A stretch of DNA of 39,647 bases from a virus: positions 1 through 39,647 of the IMG/VR virus record IMGVR_UViG_3300011980_000001. One strand, written 5' to 3'. The stretch's first letter is position 1. Each line of letters begins with the position of its first letter. The notes below the pieces were generated by a model, which was not told where the DNA came from, searched no databases, and worked only from the letters and a program-made list of their open reading frames with translations. Shown here in pieces: positions 3,826 to 36,582 of this stretch. Made by a program: the position numbers and the translations under genes.

Positions 3826-4104
3826 ATGTCTGTAGAAACAACACTTAAGCCACTTCCTGGCTATGCACTAGTAAAGCTAGGCAATCAATATAAATCAGGA
3901 TTATCAACTGAAAAAGAAAAGTACGGCACGAATACAAGTGGTACGTTAGTGGCTGCTGCTTTTGGAATTGAGCACAACATATCAGAAAGAATAATAGGCA
4001 AAGTGGTATACTTCGCTGGTTTTCAGGATGGTGAACCTATCACTGATAACGGCAACGAGTACGTGTTTGTACCTATTACTGAATTAAGGGGGGTAAAAGG
4101 ATAA
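3826..4104 (+). CDS. groES: Co-chaperonin, GroES (Cpn10)-like
   Basis: 92 aa and colinear with GroES: LKPLPGYALVK N-terminal strand, a loop-like STEKEKYGTNTSG, then GTLVAA, GKVVYF and YVFVPITELRGV. AAGAAAGGG SD. Its TAA overlaps the ATG of the next gene. Confidence 0.7.
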   Translation: MSVETTLKPLPGYALVKLGNQYKSGLSTEKEKYGTNTSGTLVAAAFGIEHNISERIIGKVVYFAGFQDGEPITDNGNEYVFVPITELRGVKG

Positions 4105-5591
4105 TGCCAAAATTGTCTACAGTACGCAATATCATCGCTGGTCGTGAACTTGACGACAAAATCAAAGAGGGTGTTGAGAAAATCTACAACGTCGCTCTTG
4201 CATCATACGGCGTGAACTCTGGTAATGTGATGATTGAACACCGCTATGGCGAACCACTGGTGTCACACGACGGTATCACTAATGTCGGTAAGTTAGTAGT
4301 CGAAGATTCAGTCGAAAATATGGTGGTGTCACTAGTGCGCCAAGCAAGTGAAAAAACTAATCGTGATGCCGGTGATGCCACAACGCTTACCGTCATTCTC
4401 TCAAAAGTTGCATACGAGTTTTGGTTGAGCAAGCACCAATTCTTTACGCCACGCCAAATCCAAAAACAGATTGATGATGTAGTAGCAAAAGTTCTTAATT
4501 ACATCAAAGAAAACAAGCACGATACTACAGACGAATTGCTGCGTGGCGTATCACGTATTTCTGCTGGTGATGAGGCTATTGGTGATATGGTATTTCACTC
4601 TGTTAAAGAATCTGGTGAATATGGCGGCATTACAGTAGTTGAAACTGCTGAACCAACTATATCTACAGAAACGGTCAAAGGTTTTACATTCAAAAAGGGC
4701 TTAAAGTCAGTAGCATTAGCAAATGACCTACAGGCTCTGAAAAGCCGTTATACTGAACCAACTGTCATTGTGATGTCAAAGCTAATCACCAAAAATGAGG
4801 ATATTCTGCCCATTCTTGACCAGACAATCATCTCTGGTGCGACTGGCATTGTACTAGTGGCTGATGTGTCTGGACAGGCTCTTGAATCAATTATTGCTAA
4901 CCGTATGAACGGCAAACTTGACATTGCGGTGGTTGAGCCGCCAGCAGTAGACCGTGATATTTTCTTGCAAGACGTGGCACAATACGCAAGCACTGTGGTG
5001 TTCTCTGAGCCAGTCGCTGACTTTGATGTGAACAAGCATTGCGGCTCTGTTGAAGAGGCGTATATTACGCTATCTGAAACAACACTAAACGGCTGCAAAA
5101 CGCCAGACAAACTAGCTGACTATATATCAAATATCAGCTCTGAGGCACGTCTTGAGGTACTCAACGGCAAGACTGTACGTATCTCTGTAGGTGCGCCAAC
5201 ACAAGCTGAGCGCCAAGAACTAAAACTGCGCATTGAGGACGCTGTGTGTGCCGCCAAAACTGCATTAACGTACGGTGTTGTACCTGGCGGCGGTGTATTC
5301 TTGCGAGATATGTTCCGTACGCTGTTTAAGCCAAATGAACAATACAGCGAATTGTCATATTTTACCAAACCATTCAGCCTGCTCACTGGCGACAATGCCA
5401 ATATGATTACCGAATACAAGGACGGTTCTGGTGTTGATATTTACACTGACAGAGGTGTTGATAACATGGTTGCTGCTGGAATTGTTGATAGTGCTAAAGC
5501 TATTGAAGAGGCGGTTGTAAACTCACACTCAATTGCCGCTCAGCTAGTATCAATTAAAACAGCATTAACATTCAAAGAGGATATGAACTAA
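4104..5591 (+). CDS. groEL: Chaperonin, GroEL (Cpn60)-like, shortened and without a GGM tail
   Basis: 495 aa and colinear with GroEL. Matches include SHDGITNVGKLVVEDSVENM ([20 protein letters not shown]), NRDAGDATTLTVIL (NDAAGDGTTTATVL), RISVGAPTQAERQELKLRIEDAV...YGVVPGGGV ([22 protein letters not shown]...EGVVAGGGV) and AAGIVDSAKA (MGILDPTKV). Confidence 0.85.
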   Translation: MPKLSTVRNIIAGRELDDKIKEGVEKIYNVALASYGVNSGNVMIEHRYGEPLVSHDGITNVGKLVVEDSVENMVVSLVRQASEKTNRDAGDATTLTVILSKVAYEFWLSKHQFFTPRQIQKQIDDVVAKVLNYIKENKHDTTDELLRGVSRISAGDEAIGDMVFHSVKESGEYGGITVVETAEPTISTETVKGFTFKKGLKSVALANDLQALKSRYTEPTVIVMSKLITKNEDILPILDQTIISGATGIVLVADVSGQALESIIANRMNGKLDIAVVEPPAVDRDIFLQDVAQYASTVVFSEPVADFDVNKHCGSVEEAYITLSETTLNGCKTPDKLADYISNISSEARLEVLNGKTVRISVGAPTQAERQELKLRIEDAVCAAKTALTYGVVPGGGVFLRDMFRTLFKPNEQYSELSYFTKPFSLLTGDNANMITEYKDGSGVDIYTDRGVDNMVAAGIVDSAKAIEEAVVNSHSIAAQLVSIKTALTFKEDMN

Positions 5592-35040: not shown

Positions 35041-35232
35041 CTAAATCTCCTTCCCGTTTTTAAAACATTTACCATTACCTATTTCTCCACCAAGAGACCT
35101 ACAACGAGCCGATAATTCAATCTGGCTATTGAGTTCGCTGCCGCTGATGCTCATGCTTAAGCCAATCAGTAAACCAAATACTACTAGGACGGTTAGCTCC
35201 GATTTAGTTGATTGCTCACTCTTTTCCATCAT
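35041..35232 (-). CDS. Small membrane-anchored protein (63 aa)
   Basis: ATGATG at 35232 with AGAGGTGGGA upstream. TM segment LTVLVVFGLLIGLSMSI. Confidence 0.5.
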   Translation of the reverse strand: MMEKSEQSTKSELTVLVVFGLLIGLSMSISGSELNSQIELSARCRSLGGEIGNGKCFKNGKEI

Positions 35233-35461
35233 TCCCACCTCTGTTATTTTCGTTGACTGTTGGTTGATTATCCTGACCAGCAATCTGAATATCATCCATA
35301 TCAACAAACTCCGCATTAACAACTGCTGCAATCTGTTGGTAATTATCTTTGCTTGAGCCGGTATAACCTAAATCTATTTTTACGAAATTGATTTGACCAG
35401 CAGACTCGCCTGTAACTAATATGGCTTGATGTTTGCTTGATATGTAGATTAGTTTTTTCAT
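35216..35461 (-). CDS. Hypothetical protein (81 aa)
   Basis: AAGAAAGGAAA SD. First gene after the non-coding element. Confidence 0.55.
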   Translation of the reverse strand: MKKLIYISSKHQAILVTGESAGQINFVKIDLGYTGSSKDNYQQIAAVVNAEFVDMDDIQIAGQDNQPTVNENNRGGNDGKE

Positions 35462-35500
35462 AATTATTTCCTTTCTTATTTACACGAAATCGTGTAGTTT

Positions 35501-35769
35501 AATTCAACCGCAGAACTGGTGGCTATATAAGGTGATGATTTGACGAGAGGCTTCAATCCTTCACGCGTTAGCAATAATGCTACTATAGCGTCGTTTCAGT
35601 ACTCGTATAGTCACATCACAGTTACGCAACTGACTTTTCCCTATTTTACATTATGCGGCTTTTTGCTTTCATCCCAGGGGTCGTATTTTCGTACGAGGCT
35701 TAGTCTAAGCTGTCAGTTAATCTTTACCTTTTTCGCCACTTATATAGCCACCAGTTATGCGGTTGAATT
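35501..35769. other. 269-bp non-coding element bounded by 31-bp near-perfect inverted repeats (candidate structured RNA or MITE-like insertion)
   Basis: aattcaaccgcagaactggtggctatataag (35501..35531) matches the reverse complement of cttatatagccaccagttatgcggttgaatt (35739..35769) at 30/31 positions. It lies in a 360-bp gap with no credible ORF. Confidence 0.7.
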
Positions 35770-35821
35770 GTTAATGTTCGCCCAGTTTTTCGACGTGTGG
35801 TAGGTCAATGGTTAACGGTGT

Positions 35822-36001
35822 TTATGCATTACTCTCATCTTCGTCAACTTCTACGTCGAAAAAATGTAAAGTCGTACAGTTTGGACATTGTAGATTAACG
35901 TTATACTGGTCTTCTCCTGAGTCGTAGCTTAGCTCGAGCGTTTGGTCTTCAATAAGACAGCCGCAGTTGCCACAAATCGTATGTAGTTTTGCCATTACCA
36001 T
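35822..36001 (-). CDS. Mini zinc-ribbon protein (59 aa)
   Basis: Not in the track. TAATG overlap with the upstream stop. ICGNCGC ... QCPNC. Confidence 0.5.
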   Translation of the reverse strand: MVMAKLHTICGNCGCLIEDQTLELSYDSGEDQYNVNLQCPNCTTLHFFDVEVDEDESNA

Positions 36002-36582
36002 TATTCAACTCCAAAATAAATCAACCAGTCTTCTCGGTTTTCTTCGATGGATTTTTCAGCTTCTATCCAGGTTCTATAATATGCAACATCTCCGTAGTCA
36101 ATAAAATCAATAGACACAGAGTTTAACTTTTCTTCCTCATAGTCGTAGCCGACAACCCAGCCGACTTTACCGTTCTTAAAGTCTGGCTTGAATGTTGAGG
36201 TTTGGCGTAGTCTAACTTTAGCCAGTTTACGTTTTCTAGCCTTTTCACAGTCTTGCGAGGTGCGATAGGCGTTACCGAACCTGAGAAGGTTACGGTGGTA
36301 TGAACTATTTACATTAAAATATGTAAAAGCTATATCGTGATTCTTATCAAGATACCAAATCTTTTCATCTTTCTTGGGCTTCCAGTGAATACTGTCTGTC
36401 GGTTCTTGGATTTCCTCGAACCATTCTGTGAGAATATTCGGGAACTTTTCAAGCGTCGATTGGGCGTAAGCCATAATACCAAAACCGCCATCATCATAGA
36501 CTAAAGCACCATATTCAGATATATAGAATAAATCTCCAGCTTTGAAGGTCGGTAAATCTTTAAGTAGTTTATAGCGTTTCAT
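36001..36582 (-). CDS. Hypothetical protein (193 aa)
   Basis: Largest ORF of the AT-rich early block. No motif recognised. Confidence 0.6.
   Translation of the reverse strand: MKRYKLLKDLPTFKAGDLFYISEYGALVYDDGGFGIMAYAQSTLEKFPNILTEWFEEIQEPTDSIHWKPKKDEKIWYLDKNHDIAFTYFNVNSSYHRNLLRFGNAYRTSQDCEKARKRKLAKVRLRQTSTFKPDFKNGKVGWVVGYDYEEEKLNSVSIDFIDYGDVAYYRTWIEAEKSIEENREDWLIYFGVE

What the first reader, a model, noticed from the sequence alone, without database searches (positions are those of the whole stretch)
35501..35769. 269-bp non-coding element closed by a 31-bp near-perfect inverted repeat: structured RNA or MITE-like insertion
Seen: within a 360-bp gap (35462..35821) that has no credible ORF, 35501..35531 and 35739..35769 are reverse complements at 30/31 positions. 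With one bulged G the helix extends to about 33 bp. The 207-bp interior has several local hairpins: tagca-ataa-tgcta near 35568..35581, tcgta-ttttcg-tacga near 35681..35696 and gctta-gtc-taagc near 35698..35710. It also has an imperfect direct repeat, acgagaggctt / acgaggctt. A separate perfect 6-bp hairpin, tacacg-aaat-cgtgta (35481..35496), sits just upstream of the next gene's SD. No target-site duplication is obvious and no second copy is present in this genome. Inference: the candidates are a phage non-coding RNA with a long closing stem (an RNase III substrate or processing site), a miniature inverted-repeat transposable element picked up from the host, or a recombination or packaging signal. 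I do not recognise it as any named RNA family.
Basis: seen in the sequence. Interest (0 to 1): 0.65.

Follow-up and report, generated by a model that had tools for sequence, protein, structure and literature searches.

The report
Stem-framed RNA cassette array, minimal allele
The 31-bp inverted repeat is real and closes the smallest known version of a previously undescribed, widespread array of hairpin-framed small RNA genes (true tRNAs, tRNA look-alikes and unknown folds) in phages of oral Saccharibacteria; it is not a MITE.

Summary
In detail: 35501-35531 and 35739-35769 are complementary at 30 of 31 positions, occur once in the window and match no Rfam family.

Comparison with about 100 related loci changes the interpretation. 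The loci come from oral Saccharibacteria (Nanosynbacter) phages and prophages. The repeat is two stacked RNA helices on the minus (gene-sense) strand. A 17-bp outer helix closes a whole array of 1-6 RNA cassettes in relatives. An 11-bp helix closes the terminal cassette. The window keeps only that terminal cassette, so the two helices stack into one.

Each cassette reads 5'-GG…(U/C)C-3', has a closing helix of at least 11 bp, and is joined to the next by an AACU linker. G·U pairs outnumber A·C by 146 to 10, the helices covary, and all tRNA calls lie on the sense strand.

Cargo includes tRNA-Met, tRNA-Tyr, odd tRNA-likes and unknown folds. The window's cargo is a derived tRNA-like RNA.

I infer excision of the outer helix by RNase III. 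I also infer RNase P-type cutting at U↓GG linkers in multi-cassette relatives. Neither step is tested.

The MITE and packaging-signal readings are not supported. A 193-aa gene of unknown function lies next to nearly every array.

The parts
35780..35825 (-). Conserved upstream module (…AUAAAC…UUAACCAUUGACCUACCACACGUCGAAAAACUGGGC). It is optional in relatives, overlaps the stop codon of ORF 35822-36001, and its role is unexplained.
   Evidence: Present upstream of many arrays whatever the upstream gene is. No sigma-70-type promoter or terminator is predicted on the minus strand here. Coordinates.
35768..35779 (-). Leader GAACAUUAACAA, found directly 5' of the outer helix in essentially every array. 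In the window its last two A also pair with 35501-35502.
   Evidence: Constant in the 42 flanks aligned. Used as the anchor that retrieved 109 metagenome stretches. Coordinates.
35751..35767 (-). 5' strand of the array-closing outer helix, UUCAACCGCAUAACUGG (17 nt).
   Evidence: Pairs with 35503-35519. In 95 unique arrays position 11 is U-A in 46, G-C in 42 and mismatched in 7 (the window is U·C). Position 9 is C-G in 47 and U·G in 47.
35750..35750 (-). Junction U, which pairs with A 35520. It joins the outer helix to the cassette helix into one continuous helix.
   Evidence: Single-cassette arrays L036 and L067 have UU…AA at this place and the window has U…A. Multi-cassette arrays have CAACU|GG here instead.
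35739..35749 (-). 5' strand of the terminal-cassette closing helix, GGCUAUAUAAG (11 nt).
   Evidence: Conserved frame 'F5' of the 3'-most cassette in most arrays. Pairs with 35521-35531.
35722..35738 (-). Degenerate remnant of a class-II-tRNA-like D arm (UGGCGAAAAAGGUAAAG; relatives have UGGCGGAAUAGGUAGACGC).
   Evidence: Alignment of type-A cassettes. The Rfam tRNA model aligns the L004 version at 21.7 bits, below the gathering score of 29. There is no tRNA hit in the window itself.
35620..35721 (-). Variable domain V1. It holds helix AACUGAC/GUCAGUU enclosing hairpins 35698-35710 (GCUUA-GAC-UAAGC) and 35681-35696 (UCGUA-CGAAAA-UACGA), plus a less certain third element.
   Evidence: Shared only with L035 and L207 (97%) and L163 (85%). 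L035 has a GAAA tetraloop and L163 a UUCG tetraloop on the same stem. C-G changes to U·G in hairpin 1.
35532..35619 (-). Conserved arm GUGAUGUGAC…GUCAAAUCAUCAC with inserted variable hairpin V2 (35544-35609). In minimal relatives the arm is a 6-bp stem with a 7-nt T-loop-like loop, UGCAAAU.
   Evidence: 59 distinct versions listed. All changes in the 6-bp stem are to wobble pairs (GUGGUG, CAUCAU, CAUCGC). The V2 allele of the window is shared with about 14 loci.
35521..35531 (-). 3' strand of the terminal-cassette closing helix, CUUAUAUAGCC.
35501..35520 (-). Junction A (35520), the 3' strand of the outer helix CCAGUUCUGCGGUUGAA (35503-35519), and two window-specific extra pairs (35501-35502).
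   Evidence: The 5' strand is of the 'U-A' haplotype and the 3' strand of the 'G-C' haplotype, so this is a recombinant array.
35459..35496 (-). Not part of the element. This is the 5' UTR hairpin (35481-35496), Shine-Dalgarno sequence and ATG of the next gene (35216-35461). No terminator separates it from the array.
   Evidence: The same hairpin and gene follow the arrays of L056 and L067.
36001..36582 (-). Linked gene: a 193-aa protein of unknown function and unknown fold family.
   Evidence: A homologue lies within 2 kb upstream on the same strand in 69 of 74 array loci found independently of it. All other neighbours vary. No hit in Pfam, PHROGs, NCBIfam, PADLOC or PDB. AF2 pLDDT is 88, and only uncharacterised phage proteins match in BFVD.

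Best explanation
The element is a gene for a structured, stable RNA on the minus strand. It is co-transcribed with the early genes of a Nanosynbacter (Saccharibacteria) podophage. It is the one-cassette allele of a modular 'framed RNA array'.

Shown:
- In relatives, a 17-bp outer helix (leader GAACAUUAACAA + UUCAACCGCAUAACUGG … CCAGUUAUGCGGUUGAA) encloses 1-6 cassettes.
- Each cassette is 5'-GG-[helix of at least 11 bp]-cargo-[helix]-(U/C)C-3'.
- Cassettes are joined by AACU linkers.
- Cargo is tRNA-Met, tRNA-Tyr, aberrant tRNA-likes and unknown folds.
- In the window only the terminal 'type-A' cassette is left. Outer helix (17 bp) + junction pair (1) + cassette helix (11 bp) + 2 extra pairs make the 31-bp repeat.

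Inferred:
- The long perfect-but-one duplex is cut by a double-strand-specific RNase (RNase III). This would release an RNA of about 230-260 nt and separate the upstream and downstream mRNA, as in rRNA operons and T7 early mRNA.
- In multi-cassette relatives the units are separated at AACU↓GG by RNase P-type cleavage. The linker has U at -1, the first pair is G(+1)-C, and an unpaired A follows the helix.
- The released RNAs act as tRNAs or tRNA mimics. The role of the window's cargo is unknown.
For: - Family and anatomy: 14 IMG/VR contigs share the arm. Reading and parsing them shows the array architecture. There are 95 unique complete arrays after the neighbour-gene and metagenome scans.
- Outer helix: covariation U-A 46 versus G-C 42 at position 11, and U·G in 47 of 95 arrays at position 9.
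- Cassette helices: 76 frames are 85% paired against 65.4±1.0% in shuffles. The covariation score is 0.542 against 0.208 (0 of 500 shuffles reach it), and slid controls give 0.055-0.167. Eight of 13 pairs change on both sides.
- Strand: G·U 146 versus A·C 10 in the first 11 bp of 78 cassettes. All 14 ARAGORN calls in arrays are on the sense strand, as are tRNA-Met in L001 and L012. The type-A cassette is forward relative to the leader in 72 arrays and reversed in 1. A GNRA/UUCG tetraloop swap and wobble-only changes occur in the window's own cargo type.
- Co-transcription: same strand as the flanking genes, no promoter or terminator predicted on that strand, and the next gene's SD follows within about 30 nt.
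- RNase P-like linker: U at -1 in about 96% of junctions when anchored on the frame sequence rather than the linker. G1-C occurs in 71 of 76 frames and G2·U in 66 of 76. tRNA-Tyr at the array's 3' end uses the CCA of CCAGUU as its own ACCA end and has U(-1)/G(+1).
- Known biochemistry: bacterial RNase P prefers U(-1), cuts polycistronic precursors, and cuts hairpin substrates such as pre-4.5S RNA and phage C4 RNA (PMC10731613, PMC4919922).
- Host: portal is 68% identical to TM7 phage DolZOral124_53_65. The array occurs in a Saccharibacteria MAG and in a prophage of Ca. Nanosynbacter sp. TM7-076.
Against: - There is no expression or cleavage data of any kind.
- In the window the leader is fully paired with the trailer. 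[quoted passage not shown]
- The spacing between GCC and CCAGUU varies (1, 2 or 4 nt) among relatives, so the 'discriminator + CCA' look of GCC-A-CCA is not a conserved feature.
- The frames are conserved in sequence as well as in pairing, and AAC of the linker is more conserved than RNase P would need. Some other factor, or recombination, may constrain them.
- The sense-versus-antisense folding-energy test was not decisive. Flanking coding DNA shows a similar bias (-9.0 against -13.8 kcal/mol).
- The window's copy has a degenerate D-arm segment and a mismatched hybrid outer helix, and it is a singleton allele. It may be a decaying remnant.
- One relative (L036) carries the cassette inverted.
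- Sequences are related, so covariation counts overstate the number of independent events.
Confidence: 0.6

Rival explanations
1. Cis-acting mRNA element only. The long helix and structured interior act in the polycistronic early transcript as an RNase III processing or stability site or an insulator, like T7 R sites or REP elements. They set the relative levels of upstream and downstream genes, and no trans-acting RNA product is made.
For: The element is embedded between co-oriented genes without its own promoter or terminator. The cargo is hypervariable while the helices are conserved. Hairpin loops are found in both orientations, which suggests the loop sequence is not critical.
Against: Relatives carry real tRNA genes and tRNA-likes as cargo, which are trans-acting by nature. 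Cargo alleles keep RNA-specific features: tetraloop swaps and wobble-only substitutions. The type-A orientation is kept in 72 of 73 arrays.
Confidence: 0.17
2. Decayed relic. The window's single cassette is what a deletion or recombination left of a larger functional array, and it no longer has a function. The 31-bp repeat is simply the juxtaposition of two former helices.
For: The outer helix is a hybrid of two haplotypes with a U·C mismatch, seen in only 4 of 95 arrays. The D-arm segment carries two extra substitutions relative to L035 and L207. The allele is a singleton among 95 arrays, and arrays with 3-4 AACUGG linkers are the norm.
Against: The junction carries an extra U…A pair. The other single-cassette arrays carry UU…AA. 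These make the helix continuous, which a plain deletion between linkers would not give. The interior hairpins and the conserved arm are intact. Three other independent single-cassette arrays exist.
Confidence: 0.13
3. DNA-level mobile or invertible element. Either it is a MITE-like insertion with terminal inverted repeats, or it is a segment flipped by recombination between the repeats (an on/off switch). Cassettes would be added by site-specific insertion that duplicates AACTGG.
For: The terminal inverted repeats are perfect but for one base. L036 has the cassette inverted between the repeats. Short hairpin modules occur in both orientations. Junction sequences (AACTGG, GAACATTAACA) are repeated at module boundaries as target duplications would be.
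Against: There is one copy per genome and no target-site duplication around the element. The 5' flank is constant. No dispersed host copies were found. No transposase, integrase or invertase is linked; the only linked gene has no such domain. G·U-rich helices and strict co-orientation argue for selection on the RNA. The repeated junctions have different lengths (6 and 11 nt), so a single enzyme is unlikely.
Confidence: 0.08
4. Replication origin or packaging (pac/cos) signal that uses hairpin or cruciform DNA.
For: Only the presence of a long inverted repeat in a non-coding gap.
Against: The element lies in the early-gene region about 4 kb from the terminase genes. It contains tRNA genes in relatives. 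Its cassette number varies from 1 to 6. The strand-specific wobble pairs are meaningless for duplex DNA.
Confidence: 0.02

Closest known systems
Phage tRNA gene clusters with accompanying stable RNAs (T4 tRNA region with the rnaC/rnaD species, T5 tRNA arrays; 'tRNA array units', PMC5966550)
   Same: Both are a co-transcribed run of small stable RNA genes in a phage. They mix true tRNAs with RNAs of unknown function, vary in content between relatives, and need endonucleolytic dicing. The comparison with T4 and T5 rests on my own knowledge.
   Different: Here each unit sits inside a conserved helical frame of at least 11 bp that starts with GG. Units are joined by an invariant AACU linker, and the whole array is closed by a long-range 17-bp helix. 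Most cargo is not a canonical tRNA. The window itself has no tRNA at all.
RNase III processing stems: leader-trailer helices around 16S/23S rRNA and T7 early-mRNA R sites
   Same: Both are long-range or long local duplexes that bracket a stable RNA inside a longer transcript. A 31-bp near-perfect duplex is long enough for RNase III. This rests on established knowledge and was not tested here.
   Different: There is no sequence similarity. The bracketed content is a variable cassette array. Cleavage is unproven, and the outer helix is only 17 bp in multi-cassette relatives.
Non-tRNA hairpin substrates of bacterial RNase P (pre-4.5S RNA, phage P1/P7 C4 RNA, his operon hairpin) and tRNA-like 3'-end modules (MALAT1 mascRNA)
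   Same: Both have a helix of about 11-14 bp with G(+1)-C at its base, U at -1 and an unpaired purine 3' of the helix. Each unit could be released by tRNA-processing enzymes (PMC10731613, PMC4919922).
   Different: Most units lack an RCCA tail and a T loop. The linker is AACU. [quoted passage not shown] No cleavage data exist.
Bacterial Y RNAs / YrlA (tRNA-mimicking RNAs closed by a long 5'-3' stem; PMC4201824)
   Same: Both have a long terminal stem plus an internal tRNA-like module. Both are found in bacteria and phages.
   Different: There is no Rfam Y-RNA hit. No Rsr/Ro60 gene is nearby. The array organisation and the frames are absent from Y RNAs.
Integron cassette arrays, and BIME/REP mosaics
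   Same: Both are ordered arrays of exchangeable modules bounded by short conserved junctions and inverted repeats, with presence/absence variation between relatives.
   Different: There is no integrase and no attC-type site. The cassettes are RNA genes, not ORFs. All units are co-oriented, the pairing is selected at RNA level, and there is one array per genome.

Membership tests
Any Rfam 15 family | Covariance-model score at or above the family's gathering score | tested here: not met
   No hit in the whole window at gathering threshold. In 35400-35900 only chance-level hits with E above 4. In relatives only the tRNA cassettes score.
tRNA (RF00005) | Cloverleaf with acceptor, D, anticodon and T arms detected by ARAGORN or Infernal | tested here: not met
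   The window has no ARAGORN gene and no tRNA hit even at E up to 10. The shorter type-A cassette of L004 reaches 21.7 bits against a gathering score of 29, with a 4-bp/6-nt anticodon arm and a mismatched acceptor. It is tRNA-derived at best.
tRNA-like 3' end (discriminator + CCA) | Exactly one unpaired base between the acceptor helix and CCA | tested here: not met
   The window has GCC-A-CCA, but relatives have GCC-AA-CCA, GCC-AU-CCA and GCC-AACA-CCA. The CCA belongs to the outer helix. Only the tRNA-Tyr cassettes use it as a true ACCA end.
MITE | Terminal inverted repeats | tested here: met
   Arms complementary at 30 of 31 positions.
MITE | Target-site duplication and variable flanks on both sides | tested here: not met
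   No direct repeat flanks the arms. The 5' flank GAACAUUAACAA is the same in all loci, and only the 3' flank varies.
MITE | Multiple dispersed copies in the genome or host | tested here: not met
   One copy in the window and usually one array per phage contig. The genome-collection scan found it once, in phage context. That scan used an exact 18-mer, so diverged copies could be missed.
RNase III substrate | Roughly two turns (about 20 bp or more) of near-perfect dsRNA | tested here: met
   A 31-bp helix with one U·C mismatch on the transcribed strand.
RNase III substrate | Staggered cleavage in the helix by the host enzyme | not testable with these tools
   Needs an in-vitro cleavage assay or end-mapping.
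RNase P model (hairpin) substrate | U(-1), G(+1)-C base pair, helix of about 12 bp, single-stranded 3' tail | tested here: inconclusive
   Family-wide the feature is met: U(-1) in about 96% of junctions, G1-C in 71 of 76 frames, helix of at least 11 bp, and an unpaired A after the helix. In the window, U 35750 precedes GG, but the leader is fully paired with the trailer. That is an anti-determinant.
Framed RNA array of Saccharibacteria phages (family defined here) | Leader GAACAUUAACAA + outer helix UUCAACCG.A.AACUGG / CCAGUU.U.CGGUUGAA on the gene-sense strand | tested here: met
   Window 35751-35779 and 35503-35519.
Framed RNA array of Saccharibacteria phages (family defined here) | Terminal type-A cassette: GGCUAUAUAAG…GAUGUGAC…CAAAUCAUC…CUUAUAUAGCC | tested here: met
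   All segments are present in the window in the forward orientation.
Framed RNA array of Saccharibacteria phages (family defined here) | 193-aa gene within 2 kb upstream, same strand | tested here: met
   Window ORF 36001-36582, and 69 of 74 independent loci.
Integron | Tyrosine-recombinase integrase next to the array, and attC sites | tested here: not met
   No integrase domain in the neighbouring ORFs of the window or of L207. The junction CCAGTTG fits GTTRRRY only in some frames (reading).
Y RNA / YrlA | Rfam Y-RNA model hit and a linked Rsr (Ro60) gene | tested here: not met
   No hit. No Rsr-like domain among the neighbours.

The most novel reading that the evidence does not exclude
The arrays may be a dedicated phage system for carrying and exchanging small RNAs.
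- A universal helical 'frame' (GG…UC, at least 11 bp, conserved G2·U) plus an AACU linker would make any cargo a substrate of the host's tRNA-processing enzymes.
- The frame would also serve as a homology arm for swapping cargo between phages.
- The cargo (aberrant tRNAs with 6-nt anticodon loops, tRNA-Tyr, tRNA-derived type-A RNAs) would be a fast-evolving set of tRNA decoys or replacements. These would act against tRNA-targeting defences of Saccharibacteria.
- The system would work together with the linked 193-aa protein and, in some phages, a mini class-Ib aminoacyl-tRNA-synthetase-like protein.
Probability: 0.2. Interest if true: 0.88.

Novelty: new variant of a known kind. Interest (0 to 1): 0.7.

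Why it matters
Phage tRNA clusters are known. A generic framing grammar has not been described in Rfam 15 or in the literature I could search. The grammar consists of a helix, a linker and an array-closing helix, and it packages arbitrary structured RNAs.

The system occurs in more than 100 oral metagenome contigs and in prophages of Nanosynbacter genomes. The linked protein has about 2,600 homologues.

If the frames are processing signals, this is a natural counterpart of engineered tRNA-spaced RNA arrays. It also opens RNA processing in CPR bacteria to study.

If the cargo are tRNA decoys, the system adds a new layer to phage-host conflict in an uncultured-majority phylum.

The case is experimentally tractable, because strain TM7-076 carries an array-bearing prophage with the same cargo domain as this window.

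Tried and rejected
- INPHARED phage searches with the gap and with 5 kb around it found no DNA match.
- Rfam searches of the window, the loci and the L004 cassette recognised only tRNA cassettes.
- The genome-collection scan with an 18-mer gave six hits. Five were chance matches and one (L021) was real.
- I tried sense-versus-antisense folding energy as a strand test. I rejected it as evidence after a control on flanking coding DNA showed nearly the same bias.
- I rejected the 'discriminator + CCA' reading of GCC-A-CCA because the spacing varies.
- K-turn / C-D box idea: UGAUGA on the plus strand gave weak snoRNA hits at chance level. The motif is just one strand of a Watson-Crick helix.
- Hammerhead or other ribozymes: no Rfam hit.
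- A generic search of the window for further framed hairpins gave only noise.
- The 193-aa protein has no hit in Pfam, PHROGs, NCBIfam, PADLOC or PDB by sequence or by fold. BFVD gives only uncharacterised phage proteins.
- I looked for a promoter in the conserved upstream module. There is no sigma-70-type match on the sense strand (and my own reading).
- Four literature searches found no description of this array. A fifth supplied the RNase P reviews cited here.
Full report
**1. The observation**

The region was read directly. The repeat finder reports arms 35501-35531 and 35739-35769, 31 nt long, 97% complementary and 207 nt apart.

The 27-nt core of the arm occurs only at these two sites in the window, even with up to three mismatches. 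None is expected in shuffles. My own calculation gives about 2e-10 such repeats by chance.

Both strands fold far better than shuffled controls. The minus strand gives -96.0 kcal/mol (z = -7.5) and the plus strand -93.3 kcal/mol (z = -6.7).

The gap has no credible ORF. The flanking genes (35822-36001 and 35216-35461) are on the minus strand.

No Rfam family matches at gathering threshold in the window or at E up to 10 in the gap. There are no tRNA genes in the window.

**2. Genome and host**

The window is a phage of about 39.6 kb with almost all genes on the minus strand. It encodes a large terminase, a P22/SU10-type portal, an amidase and a Cpn60-like chaperonin.

It has no DNA match in INPHARED. 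Its portal is 68% identical to that of TM7 phage DolZOral124_53_65.

The element's relatives come mostly from human oral metagenomes. One lies in a Saccharibacteria MAG. Homologues of the neighbouring gene lie on Saccharibacteria-sized contigs of 0.75-0.84 Mb and in Ca. Nanosynbacter sp. TM7-076, where a prophage sits next to recG. The host is therefore Saccharibacteria (Nanosynbacter), and the phage group is temperate.

**3. What the repeat is**

A scan of IMG/VR with the arm sequence gave 14 contigs, each with only one exact copy. Reading them on the strand that corresponds to the window's minus strand showed why.

- The outer 17 nt of the arm (UUCAACCGCAUAACUGG) and its complement (CCAGUUAUGCGGUUGAA) bracket a whole array that is 218-864 nt long.
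- The inner 11 nt (GGCUAUAUAAG / CUUAUAUAGCC) bracket only the 3'-most cassette.
- Between them lie further cassettes. Each is closed by its own helix and preceded by (C)AACUGG.

More loci came from the neighbouring 193-aa gene and from one metagenome scan with the conserved 5' leader. Together they give 95 unique complete arrays with 1 to 5 AACUGG linkers, and most have 3-4.

The window has one cassette. Its 31-bp repeat is made of 2 window-specific pairs, 17 outer pairs, 1 junction pair (U 35750 with A 35520) and 11 cassette pairs.

The other single-cassette arrays, L036 and L067, have UU…AA at the junction. This again gives a continuous helix.

**4. RNA or DNA, and which strand**

*Outer helix, 95 arrays.*
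- Position 11 is U-A in 46, G-C in 42 and mismatched in 7.
- Position 9 is C-G in 47 and U·G in 47.
- Position 1 is U-A in 68 and U·G in 20.
- Most other positions were fixed by the search patterns and carry no information.
- The window combines a 'U-A' 5' strand with a 'G-C' 3' strand. That explains its single U·C mismatch (35757 opposite 35513).

*Cassette helices.*
- In 78 unique internal cassettes the first 11 positions are Watson-Crick in 684 cells, G·U in 146, A·C in 10 and otherwise mismatched in 18.
- A formal count on 76 frames gives 85% paired against 65.4±1.0% in shuffles.
- The covariation score is 0.542 against 0.208 (0 of 500 shuffles reach it).
- Slid controls give 0.055-0.167.
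- Eight of 13 pairs change on both sides.
- The frames are paralogous and related, so these counts overstate independent events. The slid controls keep relatedness and still fail.

*tRNA orientation.* All tRNA and tRNA-like calls inside arrays are on this strand.

*Cassette orientation.* The type-A cassette is forward relative to the leader in 72 arrays and reversed in one.

*The window's own cargo type.* One hairpin has a GAAA loop in L035 and a UUCG loop in L163. The other changes are to wobble pairs.

*A test that failed.* Folding energies favour the sense strand in 38 of 42 arrays, but flanking coding DNA shows nearly the same bias. I do not count this test.

I conclude that the helices are RNA helices on the minus strand.

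**5. Grammar of the array**

- Each cassette reads 5'-G1 G2 N N R S A Y N A N … -3'. G1 pairs with C (71 of 76) and G2 with U (66 of 76). The helix is at least 10 bp in 71 of 79 cassettes.
- After the closing C comes AACU. When junctions are located by the frame sequence rather than by the linker, U is at -1 in about 96% and AACU is present in most.
- Frame types occur in a mostly conserved order. Presence, absence and cargo vary.
- The leader GAACAUUAACAA directly precedes the outer helix in all loci. The sequence downstream is variable and usually runs straight into the next gene's ribosome-binding site.
- No sigma-70-type promoter or terminator is predicted on the sense strand in the window.

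**6. Cargo**

- ARAGORN and Rfam find tRNA-Met(CAU) in the first frame (L001, L012; 35 bits).
- tRNA-Tyr(GUA) sits at the 3' end of some arrays. Its ACCA end is the CCA of CCAGUU.
- Nine arrays carry tRNA-likes with 6-nt anticodon loops.
- Other cargo ranges from 30 to about 340 nt and matches nothing in Rfam.
- The window's type-A cassette occurs in 69 of 95 arrays.

The type-A cassette has four parts.
- An 11-bp closing helix.
- A 5' segment, UGGCGGAAUAGGUAGACGC. From memory it is nearly identical to the D-arm region of bacterial tRNA-Leu. The Rfam tRNA model aligns it at 21.7 bits in L004, below threshold.
- A variable domain, V1.
- A conserved arm, GUGAUG-UG…CAAAU-CAUCAC. In its minimal form this is a 6-bp stem with a 7-nt T-loop-like loop, and a second variable hairpin (V2) is inserted into it.

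In the window the D-arm segment is degenerate. V1 is shared only with L035/L207 and L163. V2 is shared with about 14 loci. The window's cassette is a mosaic of alleles.

**7. Mechanism**

Shown: the element is a member of this family, the helices are selected at RNA level on the gene-sense strand, and it lies within an operon.

Inferred: a double-strand-specific RNase cuts the 31-bp duplex and releases an RNA of about 230-260 nt.

In multi-cassette relatives the junction AACU↓GG has the hallmarks of a bacterial RNase P site.
- U is at -1.
- G(+1) pairs with C.
- The helix is of acceptor-plus-T length.
- An unpaired A follows the helix.

These hallmarks are described in PMC10731613, and non-tRNA hairpin substrates are listed in PMC4919922.

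In the window the leader is fully paired with the trailer. That disfavours RNase P, so only the RNase III step would apply.

I do not know what the released type-A RNA does. The tRNA context suggests a tRNA mimic. That context consists of the tRNA cargo, a mini class-Ib aaRS-like gene in related prophages, and a tmRNA-TLD-like mini RNA in the dolphin TM7 phage.

**8. Rivals**

- MITE: rejected. There is one copy, no target duplication, a constant 5' flank and no dispersed host copies.
- Packaging signal or origin: no support.
- Purely cis-acting mRNA element, or decayed relic: both remain possible for this particular copy.
- DNA-level events do occur. One cassette is inverted (L036), and loops and short hairpins are flipped between phages. 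The 72:1 orientation bias shows that they are rare.

**9. Linked gene**

A homologue of ORF 36001-36582 (193 aa) lies within 2 kb upstream on the same strand in 69 of 74 array loci that were found without reference to it. Every other neighbour varies. Conversely, about 12 of 75 loci found through the protein show no array within 3 kb.

The protein has about 2,600 homologues and no family or structural match. The AF2 model is confident (pLDDT 88). Only uncharacterised phage proteins resemble it.

The linkage may be functional, or the gene may simply be a conserved anchor.

**10. Novelty**

The family is absent from Rfam 15, and I found no description of it in five literature searches.

It is best filed as a new variant of phage stable-RNA and tRNA gene clusters. 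What sets it apart is the framing grammar and the array-closing helix.

Noticed in passing
L097 (MG269973.1, TM7 phage DolZOral124_53_65) 7955-8020, minus strand: A 66-nt mini RNA resembles only the tRNA-like domain of tmRNA: GGGCUAG…CUAGUCC-ACCA with a G3·U70 pair and a T arm. The Rfam tmRNA model gives 34.9 bits, below the gathering score of 47. It lies at the 3' end of a roughly 290-nt gene-free stretch that has a TATAAT box upstream and an intrinsic terminator downstream. ARAGORN does not call it.
   Followed up: partly
L207 10028-10723 (Ca. Nanosynbacter sp. TM7-076 prophage); also L005, L103, L108: A 231-aa protein matches PF00579 (class Ib Trp/Tyr tRNA synthetase) and keeps HLGH and KMSKS motifs. 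It is much shorter than a full enzyme. It is encoded in array-bearing relatives but not in the window.
   Followed up: partly
L036 4158-4472: A single type-A cassette is inverted between the outer inverted repeats relative to the leader and the 193-aa gene. It is the only reversed case among 73.
   Followed up: yes
V2 hairpin of type-A cassettes (e.g. L005 vs L025); upstream hairpin module (L029 vs L069): Hairpin loops, and whole imperfect hairpins, occur as exact reverse complements in different phages (CUCGAAUGUGAG versus CUCACAUUCGAG). This is the signature of DNA-level flip-flop across short inverted repeats.
   Followed up: partly
window 35780-35825 (minus strand): A conserved module of about 45-60 nt (…TAAAC…TTAACCAWTGACCTACCAYAYGTCRAWAAACTGGGY) lies upstream of many arrays whatever the upstream gene is. 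It is not a sigma-70-type promoter or a terminator. Its function is unexplained.
   Followed up: partly
window 36001-36582 (minus strand): A 193-aa protein is tightly linked to the arrays (69 of 74 loci). It has about 2,600 homologues and no family, PDB sequence or fold match. The AF2 model is confident and resembles only uncharacterised phage proteins.
   Followed up: yes
L207 7081-7330; L001/L004/L012 between the array and the upstream module: Further stem-closed modules of 150-180 nt are inserted upstream of the array, and the leader GAACAUUAACA is repeated around them (in L207 it follows the module as well). Examples are UUCAAGCACAG…CUGUGCUUGAA and CAUACAUACACAC…GUGUGUAUGUAU. The region is modular at a second level.
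   Followed up: no
window 4104-5591 (plus strand): The phage encodes a 495-aa Cpn60/GroEL-family chaperonin (Pfam E = 3.5e-26). The dolphin TM7 phage has one too.
   Followed up: no
whole window: The hexamer AACTGG occurs 29 times on the minus strand and 5 times on the plus strand. This probably reflects coding bias, but it was not examined.
   Followed up: no
L009 (IMGVR_UViG_3300022574_000043) around 4220 and 12510: This contig carries two arrays about 8 kb apart. tRNA-Met and tRNA-Asn genes lie next to the second one.
   Followed up: no
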